A stretch of 64,000 bases of DNA from Mobula hypostoma (Eukaryota): assembly GCF_963921235.1 (NCBI RefSeq), contig NC_086097.1, forward strand, positions 5,394,001 to 5,458,000, in the 5' to 3' direction. The notes beneath the pieces were generated by a model. That model saw only the letters and a list, made by a program, of their open reading frames with translations. It was not told where the DNA came from and made no database searches. This document shows positions 108 through 22,504 of this stretch, one piece after another. Both the position numbers and the translations under genes were made by a program. Each line of letters starts with the position of its first letter. Within the stretch, counting starts at the first letter, position 1.

Positions 108-520
108 GGAAGCAAAGGCGGGTTACTGGCACCTTACAGCTGGTTGCACTGAGCAGCTGGGGCTTGTCAGCTGTGGTTGGCAGCTCCTGCGGGAGAAGGA
201 AAACACTAATCTCAAATCTCTGCTGCCTTGCAGCTATACCAAATCATAGGGAAGGCTTCGGGAGCCAAGGAAAAATCTGGAGCCGGAATTTCTAAGGCCA
301 TCCTGCGTTGTGTTCAATGGTGACTGGCATCTCCTGTAATGCTGATAGTGCCAAATTGTCAGTCTTTGCCAGTTCTTTGGATTCATCAGCTGTGTGGAGA
401 GGAGGAGCCCGCTACATGGACAACAGCTTGTTTGCCACGTTGTGCTGCCCTGGCTTGCGTATCACATAGATAGCTGGCTCACAACATCCATGGCTGACCC
501 TGACCAACAGAGGACTCAAA
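108..520 (+). mobile_element. 5'-truncated non-autonomous RTE-like element, family 1
   Basis: Homologous to 5277-5580 and to the minus-strand copy at 15195-15590 (gcaaaggcgggttactggc..gagaaggaaaac..ctcaaa.ctctgctgcctt). The RTE assignment is inference. Confidence 0.55.
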
Positions 521-5066: not shown

Positions 5067-5580
5067 GGTTCCTTATGGTTGCTCTAGCCGGGGAGGTGGG
5101 GTGCAGTATGGGAGGCATGGTAATGGGGATAAGCTCCCACTACCTATTAAATGCTCCCAATGATATGCATTTTAAATAACACAGATCAAAGTTGCTGGTG
5201 AACGCAGCAGGCCAGGCAGCATCTCTAGGAAGTGGTACAGTCGACGTTTCAGGCCGAAACCCTTCGTCAGGACCTGTGCTTTAAAACCAATCACTTCAGG
5301 CAGATGGGCTGAGCAGCAATGTTCGGCAGTTCATCAGAAAAAGGAAAACTCTTGTCTCAAACCTCTTCAGCCTTGAGGCTTTACTCACACATGGGGAAGG
5401 CTTCAGGTGTAAACCCAGAGGGAAAATCCAGAACTGGATTTCAATGCTGATTGGTATCTCCTGCGATGCTGCTGTTGCCGAACTGTATAGTTCTTTGCTG
5501 TTTCTTTGAGTTCATCTGATGCTTGAGGAGGGAGAGCCTGGTACATGGGCAACAGCTTGTGCACCTTAGTCCAGAGGAAT
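5067..5580 (+). mobile_element. RTE-like non-autonomous element family 1, core replaced by a Penelope-like terminal fragment (~5178-5275)
   Basis: Starts ggttcctta..tggtaatggggataagctcccactacc like the 15762 copy, and resumes at ttaaaacca after the insert. Confidence 0.55.
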
Positions 5581-8392: not shown

Positions 8393-9012
8393 TTAGATTA
8401 TGAAGACACGCAGTCCTCTTTGATTGTCATTTAGTAATGCATGCATTAAGAAATGATACAATATTTCCTCCGGTGTGATATCACAAAACACAGGACAGAC
8501 CAAGACTGAAAAAACTAACAAAACCACATAATTATAACATATAGTTACAACAGTGCAACAATACCATAACTTGATGAAGAAGTCCATGAGCACAGTAAAA
8601 AGTTCAAAGTCTCTCATATGTCCCACATCTCACACAGACGAGAGAAGGAAGAAAACTCTCCCTGCCATACCTGACCACAATCCGACTCTGAGTCATCCGA
8701 AAACTTTGAGCCTCCGATCAGCTCTCCGACACCGAGTACTGAGCGCCATCTCTATCTAAACGATTCGACCTCCATCTCGTTGGCCAACAGCAGACAAAGC
8801 CGGCGATTTTGTGGCCTTCCCTCCGAAAGATTCCCGACCATGGAGTAACAACAGCAGCAAACTGGTGTTTCAGAAATTTCTCCAGATGTTCCTCTGTGGT
8901 TTCACGTCCCTCTCCATCATATCAGAATTGTCCACGGCCCCTATTTAACAGATACAATATAATTTTTCACCGGAGGGTTGCGCACGCGTGGCGTGCTGTT
9001 CTCTCTCCTCCC
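8393..9012 (-). mobile_element. ~620-bp non-autonomous retroposon with (AATCT)n-type tail
   Basis: Reverse complement is highly similar to 10150-10768; the same tail recurs at 19983-20045. Confidence 0.7.
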
Positions 9013-10149: not shown

Positions 10150-10768
10150 GGAGGAGAAGATGGTGGCGCGCCTGCATTGCGCAGCCCTCCGGTGAAAAAT
10201 GATATCGTATCTGTTAAATAGGGGCTGTGAACAATTCTGATTTGATGGAGAAGGACGTGAAAACACAGAGGAACATCTGGAGAAATTTCTGAAACGCCCG
10301 TTGGCTGCTGTCGTTACTGTGCAGTCTGGAATCTTTTAGAGGGTAGGCCTCAAAATCCCCGGCCTTGCCTGCTTTTGGCGACTGAGAAGGAGGTCGAATC
10401 TTTCGGACAGAGATGGCGCTCAGTACTCGGTGTCAGAGAGCTGATCAGGGCTCGTAGTTTTCGGAAGACTCAGAGTCAGATTGTGGTCGGCATGGCAGGG
10501 AGAGTTTTTCTTCCTTCTCTCGTCTGCGTGAGATGTGGGACATTTGAGAAACTTTGAACTTTACTGTGCTCGTGGACTTCTTCATCAAGTTATGGTATTG
10601 TTGCGCTGTTGTAACTATATGTTATATTTATGTGGTTTTGTTAGTTTTTTTCAGTCTTGGTCTGTCCTGTGTTTTGTGATATCACACCGGAGGAAATAAT
10701 GTATCATTTCTTAATGCATGCATTACTAAATGACAATAAAAGAGGACTGCGTGTCTTCATAATCTAAT
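10150..10768 (+). mobile_element. ~620-bp non-autonomous retroposon (second copy)
   Basis: Starts ggaggagaagatggtggcg and ends aataaaagaggactgcgtgtcttcataatctaat; inverted homolog at 8393-9012. Confidence 0.7.
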
Positions 10769-15194: not shown

Positions 15195-15762
15195 CCTGTG
15201 TTCTTGGCAATTGTTTCCACCATTACCGTTGCCTTGAAATACTATGCAAGCCAAGGCAGTACGAGGCGGAGAGCAAGCTGTTCCCCATGTAGCAGGCTCC
15301 TCCTTTCCACGGAGTTGATGAACCCAAAGTCATGGCAGAGACCAATACAGTTTGGGACCAGCAGCATTCTAGGAGTTGCCAGTCCACATTCAACTCAACA
15401 TAGGACTACCGTAAGGACTTGCTTGCGGATTACTCCCGAAGCTCTCCCAATGAGTGGGTATAGACATAAGGCAGCAGAGGTTTGAGATCAAAGTTTTCCT
15501 TCTCCTTGATGAGCTGCCAGCTATGGCTGACAGGCTCTACCTGCCTGGAGCAACTGGTTTTAAGGCGCCCTTAACCCGCCTTTGCCCCTTCTCTTGTTAG
15601 TAGAAACGGTTCCACCAAACTTAGTAGCTGAGCCACATGTGAAGGCCAGAAGCTAGACTTGGCTGTCAGAGGCAATTTGAGATACACGGCATTGGGAGCA
15701 CTTAAGTGGAAGTGGAAGTTTATCCCCATTACCAGCCTCGGCTATGACAGCCTTAAGTAACC
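15195..15762 (-). mobile_element. Apparently full-length non-autonomous RTE-like element family 1
   Basis: Homologous to 108-520 and 5067-5580; no ORF; structured 5' end. Confidence 0.6.
15591..15762 (-). ncRNA. Candidate HDV/CPEB3-like ribozyme (no P4, hairpin in L3), degraded copy
   Basis: P1 GGUUAC (GGUUCC in the 5067 copy)/GGAACC, P2 CUUCUG/CAAGAG, P3 GCC/GGU, L3 starting UUCAC, G after P1', J4/2 CUAA. Folded by eye. Confidence 0.5.
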
Positions 15763-16235
15763 AACCTCAATGGAAAAAGGCTGCTTGCATTTACTCTGTC
15801 AATACCCCTCATCACTTTCCATAGCTCTATCAAGTCTCCCCTCAGTCTCCTACGCTCTAGGGATTAAAGTCCTAAAGTACTCCAATGTAGTTTAATTACT
15901 GATTTCTCTCTTGAAATGTTGCAGAAATCCTCAGATCTTTGGATGCTTTTTGTAATTCACAGCAGACCTAGAGCAGATGTACTTTCTGGTTGATTTAAAG
16001 TCTAGAGGACAGAGCAGTTTCTCCCAGACATAGAGGGAACACTAGTCCTGTTCTGAACTTTGAGCATGAGTGCAAGAATGAAAAGATGAAAAGAGAGCTC
16101 AAGGGCAGTAGGAGATGCTTGTAGAGAGAGGATAAGGAAAGGGAGGGGAGCTCAGCAAGTGGCCATTGGAGCAACAGGCCCCCAGGTGGTTAGATTGCTT
16201 TGGATGCTCTTTACACATTAAGGTGAGAGACAGAA

Positions 16236-21257: not shown

Positions 21258-22504
21258 TTTGTTAATTATTCTCTTATCTAGAGTCGCTGTGCTTTCTGCT
21301 TAATCTGGTCAAGTTTATTTTGACTGGAACTATTCACACTGATCACAGGGTTCCTATGTTTTGAGAATGATTCGTCTCAAGGCATCACTCACTCAAGTCA
21401 CCAACGTTCTGTTGGAATCCCTGTGTATAAACATTTGTTTCCGTCTCTACATGGGAGTCTGTCAGTCCTCTGCATCCGGTTCAGTCATTGCCAGCGCACA
21501 CCGTGACATTCAGCCTTTTGCAGTCCTCTATGTTTTTGTCCGTAACTGCATGGAGATCCGAGGTAATTCTTTAATCTTCCTTTAGCAGTTGAAGCTGAGT
21601 TTTATTTACTCATTCCCAGGAGATGGTCATGGTTGGCAAGTGCAGCATCTATTATCCATTATCCACTCCTAATTGACTTCATCTGCACGGGAAGCTGACC
21701 AGCAACTTCAAAGGGTAGTTACTTGAAACTGGAGTTTGACTTAAATCAGGCCGGGGATGGCAGCCCTCTGTCCTCCAAAGATAATGGTGAACCTGTACAG
21801 TTTTCTGATAGTCCTGTACTTTCCTTGTTCCAATTACTGATACCACTTTGAATTTCAAAATTTATTTATTTGCTCGAATTTCCAATACCAACTCTTATGA
21901 TGGGATTTGAACGTTGTTTGCGGATCAGACCATGGACAGTAGTCCATTCACTTAATTCCTGTGAAACACCGGAGAATGGGCAGATGCTGAGACTCCTGAG
22001 CAACTCATACAAACTGCTGAAGGATCTCAGGGTCCCGAGGAAAGGCCTCAGCCCGAACCGTTGACTAGCACCAGCCCACCTGCCGTCAGTATATACAGTG
22101 TAGAGAAAGGTGCTGGAAAAGGGCCAGTAACATCATGAAGGGTCACGGACTCTTTCTCCCTCCCATCAGGGAGGAAGCTACATAACCTCCAGGCCAGGAA
22201 CTCCAGACTCAAAAACAGAGACTTTCCCCAAACAGTAAGGCTGATCAACACCTCCACCCACTGACCCACCACTACTTAATCATTTCCTGTCAGTCACCTT
22301 GTGTACAGATGCTCCTGTACCTAGTGTTACTATGTGCACATGCTGTCAATCTATATATATGCAAGCTTATGTATTGATAGTTGTTGTACTTTTTATCTTG
22401 TTGTGTTTTTTTGTGCTGCACCAGATCCGGAGTAGGAACTAGCTTGCTCTTTACACTTGTGACAAGGAAATTACATTAAACAACCTTGAGTCCAACCACA
22501 CCCC

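What the first reader, a model, noticed from the sequence alone, without database searches (positions are those of the whole stretch)
15591..15762. Family-1 element starts with a CPEB3/HDV-like fold that lacks P4 but has a hairpin in L3
Seen on the minus strand: P1 GGUU(A/C)C at the element's first bases pairs with GGAACC (15613-15608). The long J1/2 is closed by GGCUGUCA/UGACAGCC. P2 is CUUCUG/CAAGAG and P3 is GCC/GGU. L3 begins UUCAC like CPEB3 and continues into the hairpin GGCUCAG-cua-CUAAGUU. A single G follows P1', then a short linker UUUCUA and J4/2 CUAA (candidate catalytic C at 15600). The family shows no obvious sequence similarity to family 2 yet has the same L3-hairpin topology, pointing to a shared structural subclass. 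HDV-like ribozymes at RTE/R2 5' ends are established; I do not know this L3 variant.
Basis: partly seen in the sequence, partly recalled or inferred. Interest (0 to 1): 0.7.

Follow-up and report, generated by a model that had tools for sequence, protein, structure and literature searches.

The report
HDV-like ribozyme heading a fish retroposon
The flagged 172 bases are a decayed copy of the first part of a short jumping element, present in over ten thousand copies, whose original sequence fits a hepatitis-delta-type self-cutting RNA of unusual build that would cut exactly at the element's first base.

Summary
Confirmed and strengthened. Window 15762-15591 (minus) is the 5' end of one old, dead copy of a ~575-590-nt non-coding, TSD-flanked non-LTR retroposon (at least 10,637 candidate copies in this 3.5-Gb genome). 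The window copy has mismatches in P1, P2 and the L3 hairpin and has lost the L3 G. The 79-copy majority sequence repairs all of them: P1 6 bp from nt 1, structured J1/2 closed by 8 bp, P2 6 bp, P3 GCC/GGC, L3 starting with the 7-mer of CPEB3, GU after P1', 5-nt linker in place of P4, J4/2 CUGA. It meets every element of the published HDV-like descriptor except J1/2 length and a 20-nt insertion (7-bp hairpin) at the 3' side of L3. With only those two relaxations, 0 of 200,000 shuffles of the consensus and 0 of 3.84 Mb of shuffled window match. In 686 kb of real sequence only family copies match. Copies start sharply at G1, and target-site duplications abut G1. No covariation (expected for dead copies of one master), no Rfam hit, no RNA data, no cleavage assay. 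P4-less HDV-like ribozymes are known from phages. My searches found no L3 hairpin and no vertebrate retroposon setting in print.

The parts
15247..15762 (-). One decayed copy of the retroposon family. It is alignable to full-length copies from element position 1 to about 532. The last ~35-40 nt of the family's 3' end are missing or unrecognisable.
   Evidence: BLAST against five full-length copies. 76% identity over the whole copy. 144 of 172 positions equal the consensus in the ribozyme part.
15757..15762 (-). P1 5' strand, GGTTAC (family: GGTTCC). The predicted cleavage site lies immediately 5' of G at 15762.
   Evidence: Consensus P1 is 6 of 6 Watson-Crick.
15653..15756 (-). J1/2 of 104 nt: a 4-nt linker, then a structured domain closed by an 8-bp stem (15752-15745 with 15668-15661), then an 8-nt linker. 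This is a P1.2-type peripheral domain.
   Evidence: the domain alone folds to -30.5 kcal/mol. The stem is paired in 92.5% of cells over 79 copies.
15647..15652 (-). P2 5' strand, CTTCTG (family CTCCTG).
15644..15646 (-). P3 5' strand, GCC.
15617..15643 (-). L3 of 27 nt. The first 7 nt are TTCACAT here (family TTCACGT). Then come GT, a 7-bp hairpin (15634-15628 / 15624-15618, loop CTA) and one more base.
   Evidence: CPEB3 L3 is U20 U21 C22 A23 C24 G25 U26, from passages of preprint 10.1101/2022.09.22.508989.
15614..15616 (-). P3 3' strand, GGT (ancestral GGC; position 149 is C in 38 and T in 37 of 79 copies, at a CpG).
15608..15613 (-). P1 3' strand, GGAACC.
15597..15607 (-). GT (P1.1 partners of L3 C and T), a 5-nt linker TTCTA in place of P4, and J4/2 CTAA (family CTGA). 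The candidate catalytic C is at 15600.
15591..15596 (-). P2 3' strand, CAAGAG (family CAGGAG).

Best explanation
The region is the fossil of an HDV-like (delta-type) self-cleaving ribozyme. It formed the first ~172 nt of a short non-autonomous non-LTR retroposon. Inferred mechanism: the element has no recognisable promoter of its own and was transcribed as part of longer host transcripts. The 5' domain folded into the nested double pseudoknot (P1/P2, P3/P1.1), helped by a stably folded J1/2 domain that holds P1 and P2 together. The C of J4/2 (consensus position 163, window 15600), with a bound Mg2+, then cut the chain just 5' of G1. The released RNA, beginning at G1, was copied into new sites by a partner LINE's reverse transcriptase (target-primed reverse transcription). 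This explains the target-site duplications, the 5' truncations and the pile-up of 5' ends at G1. The build differs from textbook HDV-like ribozymes in two ways. The P4 helix is replaced by 5 nt, as in phage 'minimal' ribozymes. A 20-nt insert carrying a 7-bp hairpin sits between the canonical 7-nt L3 and the P3 3' strand. Shown here: the family, its ends, the TSDs, and the descriptor-level match with its improbability. Inferred: folding, cleavage, read-through transcription and the LINE partner. The window copy itself is dead.
For: (1) Family: at least 3,297, 10,637 and 2,905 first-look candidates for the 5' 172 nt, the whole element and the 3' 106 nt. Scored copies are 81-90% identical to the query. 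(2) Ends: of 29 copies picked by their 3' end only, 13 begin exactly GGTTC, 19 begin within 7 nt of G1, and 10 are 5'-truncated by 12-454 nt. Columns upstream of G1 are unconserved except a T/A bias at -1. (3) TSDs: exact repeats of 8 nt or more flank 16 of 66 full-length copies, against a mean of 1.5 (max 5) in 200 mismatched-flank permutations. In L058, L068, L086 and L090 the duplication abuts G1 exactly. (4) The 79-copy majority sequence gives P1 6/6, the J1/2 stem 8/8, P2 6/6, P3 3/3 and the hairpin 7/7, all standard pairs. (5) It meets these elements of the published descriptor: GNNNNN:NNNNNY, 6-bp P2, 3-bp WC P3, TYYHCGY, RN, a linker of 4 nt or more, and CNRA. Allowing only an L3 insert of 0-30 nt and J1/2 up to 160 nt, it hits at nt 1. 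No hit occurs in 200,000 dinucleotide shuffles of the consensus, nor in 30 shuffled windows, 3.84 Mb. In 342,818 bp x 2 of real sequence there are 3 hits, all inside family copies. There are 0 hits when the catalytic C is set to A, G or T. (6) The L3 7-mer and the GU after P1' are those of the CPEB3 ribozyme (passages). (7) No tRNA-like head in 10 of 10 loci. No tRNA, 5S, 7SL or any other Rfam family at E up to 10 on the window copy or on the best copy. (8) Precedents: P4-less HDV-like ribozymes cleave (PMC10879173). A structured J1/2 activates Agam-2 ribozymes (PMC4908430). The non-autonomous NARTc cleaves at its +1 (PMC3185411). (9) Non-CpG divergence is slightly lower in the core (7.8%) and the 3' end (8.8%) than in the middle (10.7%).
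Against: There is no cleavage assay and no RNA 5'-end data. No run is on record as RNA, and only contigs could be laid, which cannot show ends. There is no covariation: 87.1% of cells are paired against 87.0% in shuffles. The copies are neutral decay products of one master, so this is uninformative rather than contrary. An insert in L3 sits at the active site and has no precedent that I found, so it might abolish catalysis. G1 pairs with C (C in 54, T in 18 of 79) and not with U. The G1.U wobble is described as highly conserved and important for rate, though the published descriptor allows G-Y. P2 is only 6 bp with 12 nt of single-stranded linkers around the J1/2 domain. In Agam-2 constructs that geometry was slow. 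A small subfamily (9 of 79 copies by my reading of the rows) carries C at P2 position 115 without a compensating change in 8 of the 9. Two descriptor limits were relaxed after seeing the sequence. Rfam's HDV-family models give nothing. Only 1 of 79 present copies (L002) still passes the descriptor.
Confidence: 0.75

Rival explanations
1. HDV-like fold kept as a structural or protein-binding 5' module, with no self-cleavage. The double pseudoknot would descend from a ribozyme but was disabled by the L3 insert and the loss of P4. The 5' end at G1 would then be set by transcription initiation from an internal promoter.
For: The L3 insert lies at the catalytic core. G1-C replaces the wobble. L1Tc's first 77 nt are both promoter and ribozyme (abstract of PMC3383444), so a 5' module can serve more than one role.
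Against: All descriptor positions that matter only for catalysis (the L3 motif with its G, RN, CNRA with C) are intact in the master sequence. The RNA's 5' end coincides to the base with the predicted cleavage site. No known Pol III head was found.
Confidence: 0.15
2. Chance resemblance: an ordinary structured 5' region of a retroposon that happens to allow HDV-like helices.
For: Helices alone are cheap: P1+P2+P3 anchored at nt 1 occur in 4,623 of 20,000 shuffles. Relaxed descriptors give hundreds of hits in the window.
Against: With the published sequence constraints added, there were 0 of 200,000 shuffles and 0 in 3.84 Mb of shuffled window, and 6 of 20,000 with my own looser version. All real hits lie in this family, and none remain with the catalytic C changed.
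Confidence: 0.05
3. A Pol III SINE (tRNA-, 5S- or 7SL-derived head) whose 5' end is a transcription start.
For: Short, non-coding, highly repeated, with a sharp 5' end.
Against: ARAGORN finds no tRNA in 10 of 10 loci. No Rfam family appears at E up to 10 in the element. There is no A-tail. The only A-box-like string lies about 128 nt inside the element (sequence).
Confidence: 0.05

Closest known systems
CPEB3 ribozyme (mammalian intronic HDV-like ribozyme)
   Same: 3-bp P3. The 7-nt L3 start U-U-C-A-C-G-U. G-U after P1' (P1.1 = one C-G plus U.U). The catalytic C is the first base of J4/2, three bases before P2' (passages of 10.1101/2022.09.22.508989).
   Different: CPEB3 has a P4 helix, a short J1/2 and a 7-nt L3 with no insert. 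It is a single conserved intronic locus, not a retroposon head. That its J4/2 reads CGAA is recalled, not from a call.
Minimal HDV-like ribozymes (drz-Mtgn) and theta ribozymes of gut phages
   Same: No P4 domain. A short loop joins P1.1 to J4/2. They are active in vitro and killed by C-to-U (PMC10879173).
   Different: Nearly 99% are in Caudoviricetes phages. They have short J1/2 and canonical L3, and often lie next to tRNAs. None was reported from the eukaryote genomes those authors scanned.
drz-Agam-2 ribozymes (large HDV-like ribozymes with a P1.2 domain)
   Same: A long J1/2 folded into a stable helix-closed domain between P1 and P2 (PMC4908430).
   Different: Agam-2 has a 12-bp P2 and a P4. 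Here P2 is 6 bp, and the linkers are 4 + 8 nt.
L1Tc/NARTc Pr77 ribozyme and R2 SIDEs
   Same: Non-autonomous non-LTR elements whose first bases are an HDV-like ribozyme cutting at +1, freeing the element from co-transcripts (PMC3185411; abstract of PMC3414825).
   Different: Those elements share the ribozyme with a known autonomous parent (L1Tc, R2). They occur in trypanosomatids or insect rDNA and have P4. Here the partner LINE is unknown and the host is a vertebrate.
Ribozyme-bearing retroposons with other motifs (metazoan retrozymes and Penelope hammerheads; Schistosoma twister variants)
   Same: A small self-cleaving RNA built into a non-autonomous or non-LTR retroelement (PMC7761336; abstracts of PMC7229834 and PMC8501958).
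   Different: A different ribozyme class. Retrozymes circularise. Penelope hammerheads also occur in this genome according to earlier notes.

Membership tests
HDV-like ribozymes (published RNArobo descriptor, PMC4870747 Add. file 1 Figs S11-S13) | P1 of 6 bp starting with G paired to a pyrimidine, at the cleavage site | tested here: met
   Consensus GGUUCC/GGAACC with G1-C155. The window copy has one mismatch. The pair is G-C, not the G.U wobble called highly conserved.
HDV-like ribozymes (published descriptor) | J1/2 of at most 50 nt | tested here: not met
   104 nt.
HDV-like ribozymes (published descriptor) | P2 of 6 bp directly 5' of P3, with its 3' strand after J4/2 (first pseudoknot) | tested here: met
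   CUCCUG/CAGGAG in the consensus. Paired in 88.7% of cells over 79 copies.
HDV-like ribozymes (published descriptor) | P3 of 3 Watson-Crick pairs whose 3' strand abuts P1' | tested here: met
   GCC/GGC after correcting CpG decay at position 149.
HDV-like ribozymes (published descriptor) | L3 = TYYHCGY, exactly 7 nt | tested here: not met
   The 7-nt motif is present (TTCACGT) but is followed by 20 more nt, including a 7-bp hairpin, before P3'.
HDV-like ribozymes (published descriptor) | RN after P1' (P1.1 partners) and J4/2 = CNRA | tested here: met
   GU and CUGA in the consensus; CUAA in the window copy.
HDV-like ribozymes (published descriptor) | P4 helix (stem version) or a linker of at least 4 nt (loose version) | tested here: met
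   The loose version is met with 5 nt. There is no P4 helix, so the stem version is not met.
HDV-like ribozymes | Match to Rfam covariance models of the HDV-type families | tested here: not met
   No hit at gathering score on the window. No HDV-type hit at E up to 10 on the window copy or on the best copy L002. This is expected if L3 is interrupted and P4 is absent.
HDV-like ribozymes | Mg2+-dependent self-cleavage 5' of G1, abolished by mutating the catalytic C | not testable with these tools
   Indirect support only: genomic 5' ends and TSDs place the RNA's start at G1.
HDV-like ribozymes | Covariation supporting the helices | tested here: inconclusive
   87.1% paired against 87.0% shuffled, and 10 against 8.7 pairs with double changes. 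The copies are independent decay products of one master.
Minimal / theta HDV-like ribozymes | No P4, short J1/2, canonical L3, phage setting | tested here: not met
   Only the lack of P4 is shared.
Pol III SINEs | tRNA-, 5S- or 7SL-derived head with internal promoter boxes | tested here: not met
   ARAGORN finds 0 of 10 loci. No such Rfam family at E up to 10.
Non-LTR retroposons copied by target-primed reverse transcription | Target-site duplications, 5' truncations, defined 3' end | tested here: met
   TSDs of 8 nt or more in 16 of 66 copies against 1.5 expected. 10 of 29 copies are 5'-truncated. The 3' end ...GGAGGCC is followed by a short variable CTCA/CAGA-like tail.

The most novel reading that the evidence does not exclude
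This is a working new structural subclass of HDV-like ribozymes: P4-less, with a helix inserted at the 3' side of L3. The GGC at consensus 129-131 can pair either with the P3 strand GCC 117-119 or, inside the hairpin, with GCC 143-145. The insert could therefore act as a built-in conformational switch or protein platform that times cleavage. Because its L3 and P1.1 bases equal those of CPEB3, this vertebrate retroposon lineage could be the kind of source from which the mammalian CPEB3 ribozyme (and, by the Szostak proposal, HDV's) was domesticated.
Probability: 0.12. Interest if true: 0.85.

Novelty: new variant of a known kind. Interest (0 to 1): 0.68.

Why it matters
HDV-like ribozymes are defined by a very tight core. 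Descriptor searches fix L3 at 7 nt (8 in genomic HDV), so anything with an interrupted L3 is invisible to them. If this one cuts, three things follow. The core tolerates a helix next to the metal-binding G.U of L3. P4-less 'minimal' ribozymes are not confined to phages. A vertebrate genome holds over ten thousand fossils of a retroposon that relied on self-cleavage instead of a Pol III promoter. The identity of its L3 and P1.1 bases with CPEB3 gives a concrete candidate lineage for the long-debated origin of that mammalian ribozyme. One natural copy (L002) still has every helix and core base, so the claim can be tested with a single transcription reaction.

Tried and rejected
1. Rfam at gathering score on the window, and at E up to 10 on the window copy and on L002: no ribozyme, tRNA, 5S or 7SL family.
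2. RNA evidence: no RNA holder listed. Contigs of runs X1, X2, X3 and X10 were laid on L002. The family is present in thousands of contigs from four differently coded organisms, but contigs cannot show RNA ends, and no place where molecules begin or end was reported.
3. Covariation and subfamily analysis: nothing beyond shuffles. Of the frequent non-CpG variants, three in stems keep pairing and one does not. This is not significant.
4. Partner LINE: three copies that break off near position 190 are interrupted by unrelated sequence, not a shared LINE body. No separate 3'-tail relative was found in the 343 kb held.
5. 'Family 2': my own strict scan gave 6 hits in the window. The one I followed up (22186, minus) is internal to another repeat, and I did not test the other five against repeat boundaries. 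Relaxed scans gave 109 + 52 and 638 hits, i.e. noise. Candidates at 22186(-) and 22050(-) lie inside other repeats. The pair at 8670(-)/10480(+) is an inverted repeat whose homology runs upstream of the motif.
7. Two key papers were not held: the Webb and Luptak 2011 review, and Ruminski et al. 2011.
8. Literature searches for an L3 insertion, or for HDV-like ribozymes in cartilaginous fish or in SINE-like elements of vertebrates, found none. I saw listings and abstracts only, except for the papers whose passages are cited.

Full report
WHAT IS THERE. The window belongs to a 3.48-Gb, 200-contig eukaryotic assembly. Earlier notes of this scan call it a ray genome; I did not test that.

In this copy P1 has an A.G mismatch, P2 has a wobble and a C.A mismatch, and the L3 hairpin has one mismatch. 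The G of the L3 motif has become A.

THE ELEMENT. The 172 nt are the head of a dispersed repeat.
- A search of the genome with the 172 nt gave 3,297 first-look candidates, with 40 scored at 81-85% identity.
- A whole copy as query gave 10,637 candidates.
- The last 106 nt gave 2,905 candidates. These counts are lower bounds.
- With 200 nt of the window's own upstream flank included, homology to 29 other loci began between -12 and +18, and between -1 and +7 in 27 of them. It ended near position 508-520. The flanks are unrelated.
- A majority sequence from 59, 79 or 66 copies is about 575-590 nt long. It has no A-tail and ends in ...GGAGGCC, followed by a short variable CTCA/CAGA-like tail.
- Copies differ from the majority sequence by about 9% at non-CpG sites, so the family is old.
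- The window copy is alignable from 15762 to about 15247. It is more decayed than most: 144 of 172 positions equal the consensus, against 150-163 for typical copies.

HOW IT MOVED.
- I drew an unbiased sample of 29 copies by their 3' end (L062-L090). Of these, 13 begin exactly GGTTC and 19 begin within 7 nt of G1. Four are truncated by 12-30 nt and six by 120-454 nt.
- Exact flanking repeats of 8 nt or more occur in 16 of 66 full-length copies. The control of 200 mismatched-flank permutations gave a mean of 1.5 and a maximum of 5.
- In L058, L068, L086 and L090 the duplication ends exactly at the base before G1. In others, 2-11 extra bases or a few bases of microhomology lie at the 5' junction.
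- These are the marks of target-primed reverse transcription of an RNA whose 5' end is G1.
- No tRNA-like head was found (ARAGORN, 0 of 10 loci). No Rfam family of any kind appeared at E up to 10.
- The element is too short to encode a reverse transcriptase. I found no partner LINE in the sequence I held.

THE FOLD IN THE MASTER SEQUENCE. The 79-copy alignment (A2), with CpG decay taken into account, gives the layout below.

| Part | Consensus positions | Sequence / note |
|---|---|---|
| P1 | G1-C6 with 150-155 | GGUUCC / GGAACC |
| Linker | 7-10 | 4 nt |
| J1/2 domain | 11-102 | closed by 8 bp; folds alone to -30.5 kcal/mol |
| Linker | 103-110 | 8 nt |
| P2 | 111-116 with 167-172 | CUCCUG / CAGGAG |
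| P3 | 117-119 with 147-149 | GCC / GGC; position 149 is C in 38 and T in 37 copies, at a CpG |
| L3 | 120-146 | UUCACGU, then GU, a perfect 7-bp hairpin with a 3-nt loop, then C |
| After P1' | 156-157 | G156 U157 |
| Linker | 158-162 | 5 nt, in place of P4 |
| J4/2 | 163-166 | C163 U164 G165 A166 |

So each imperfection of the window copy is a later mutation of a fully paired ancestor.

The nested minimum-free-energy fold (-63.3 kcal/mol) keeps P2 and the hairpin. The nested part of the proposed fold, without P2, reaches -55.9 kcal/mol when enforced. The pseudoknotted fold is therefore energetically plausible. I could not compute it with pseudoknot parameters.

COMPARISON WITH THE FAMILY DEFINITION. 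The Luptak-group descriptor is printed in Additional file 1 of PMC4870747. It asks for:
- P1 GNNNNN:NNNNNY
- J1/2 up to 50 nt
- a 6-bp P2
- a 3-bp Watson-Crick P3
- L3 TYYHCGY
- RN after P1'
- either a 5-bp P4 or a loose stretch of at least 4 nt
- J4/2 CNRA

The master sequence meets all of these except two. J1/2 is 104 nt, and 20 nt are inserted between the seventh L3 base and P3'.

I coded this descriptor with only those two limits relaxed (insert 0-30 nt, J1/2 up to 160 nt). Results:
- The consensus hits once, anchored at nt 1, with a 20-nt insert.
- None of 200,000 dinucleotide shuffles of the 200-nt consensus hits at any position.
- None of 30 shuffled windows (3.84 Mb, counting both strands) hits.
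- In the 342,818 bp x 2 strands of real sequence held (window plus 85 loci) there are three hits, all inside family copies. L002 gives the canonical parse at G1. L025 and L082 give a weak alternative parse that does not exist in the consensus.
- There are no hits when the catalytic C is replaced by A, G or T, and none when no insert is allowed.

My earlier, looser descriptor hit 6 of 20,000 shuffles. Helices alone hit 4,623 of 20,000. The signal therefore lies in the combination of position, helices and core bases. The relaxations were chosen after seeing the sequence, which is a caveat, but the margin is very large.

RESEMBLANCES.
- The first seven L3 bases and the GU after P1' are those reported for the CPEB3 ribozyme. 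There L3 is U20 U21 C22 A23 C24 G25 U26, P1.1 is C22-G37 plus U21.U38, and the catalytic base is C57 (passages of preprint 10.1101/2022.09.22.508989).
- L3 is 7 nt in CPEB3 and antigenomic HDV and 8 nt in genomic HDV (same passages), so its length is not absolutely fixed.
- Ribozymes without P4 exist and cleave, but nearly 99% of those known are in Caudoviricetes phages (PMC10879173, sections read).
[quoted passage not shown] However, a 7-bp P2 with 12 nt of linkers was slow (PMC4908430, Results). That is the geometry here.
- Non-autonomous elements headed by an HDV-like ribozyme are known: NARTc (PMC3185411), trypanosomatid SINE-like elements (abstracts) and R2 SIDEs (abstract).

AGAINST.
- There is no covariation: 87.1% of 2,329 cells are paired against 87.0% in shuffles. 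Slid registers give 31-46%, which only shows that the consensus is paired. For dead copies of one master, this neither supports nor refutes.
- G1 pairs with C, not U. The G1.U wobble is called highly conserved and important for rate, though the descriptor allows either pyrimidine.
- By my reading of the rows, 9 of 79 copies share C at P2 position 115, and only one of them has the compensating change.
- Rfam's models see nothing.
- No RNA run was listed, and the contigs laid cannot show ends.
- Only one of 79 present copies, L002, still satisfies the descriptor, so today's copies are almost all inactive.

WEAK POSITIVE. Non-CpG divergence is 7.8% in the core, 8.7% over the ribozyme, 10.7-10.8% in the middle of the element and 8.8% at the 3' end. 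This would fit some constraint on the two functional ends of the source genes. The difference is small and could come from alignment quality.

NOT RESOLVED. Of the 6 strict hits elsewhere in the window, the one I followed up (22186, minus) is internal to another repeat. I did not test the other five against repeat boundaries. Relaxed scans produce only noise. The claim of a structural subclass shared by two families therefore stays open. The partner LINE and the promoter that drove transcription are unknown.

VERDICT. The window holds a dead copy of a retroposon whose master carried an HDV-like ribozyme of a build not found in print by my searches: a CPEB3-type core, no P4, a large folded J1/2 and a hairpin inserted in L3. 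Activity remains to be shown. I put it at about 0.75.

Noticed in passing
window 5093-5200 (+), and about 112-461 (+): Two more copies of the same family. One starts GGGTTCC near 5093 and is interrupted after about 95 nt by another common repeat. The other is cut by the window's start.
   Followed up: partly
position -1 of family copies (A2 alignment; e.g. window 15763): The base just upstream of G1 is T in 29 and A in 10 of 41 copies with an exact GGTTC start (G 1, C 1). In TSD-resolved cases this base belongs to the target duplication. It may be a target preference of the partner endonuclease or untemplated addition. This is unexplained.
   Followed up: partly
window 15763-15900 (-): The copy sits inside the 3' end of a LINE-like fragment. 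By eye, the upstream stretch on the minus strand reads as a LERRRLRGDLIE...-like peptide, which I recall as typical of CR1/L2-type elements of cartilaginous fish. No translation or family search was run on it. By eye, the same fragment seems to resume after the element's 3' end (sequence printed).
   Followed up: no
window 22186-22060 (-): A canonical-looking HDV-like arrangement, with G.U at the first P1 pair, a 9-nt L3, a 4-bp P4 and a 6-bp P2. However, J4/2 is CACC, and it lies inside a repeat that extends about 200 nt further upstream (at least 1,178 candidates). It is probably chance.
   Followed up: partly
window 8411-8790 (-) and 10372-10749 (+): A 92%-identical inverted pair of about 380 nt, roughly 1.6 kb apart. 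These may be the ends of a DNA transposon or a head-to-head retroelement pair.
   Followed up: no
consensus 117-119, 129-131, 143-145 (window 15646-15644, 15634-15632, 15620-15618): GGC at the foot of the L3 hairpin can pair either with the P3 strand GCC or with the hairpin's own GCC. These are two exclusive pairings that could act as a switch.
   Followed up: no
L002 (G000:C67:56148407-56148578, minus): The best-preserved ribozyme copy found: P1 6/6, J1/2 stem 8/8, P2 6/6, P3 3/3, hairpin 6/7, with the L3 motif, GU and CUGA intact. It is a natural test substrate.
   Followed up: partly
runs X1, X2, X3, X10 laid on L002:1000-1900: Thousands of contigs from four differently coded organisms match the family at 80-99%. 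The family is therefore shared by several species, or is very widespread in their data.
   Followed up: no
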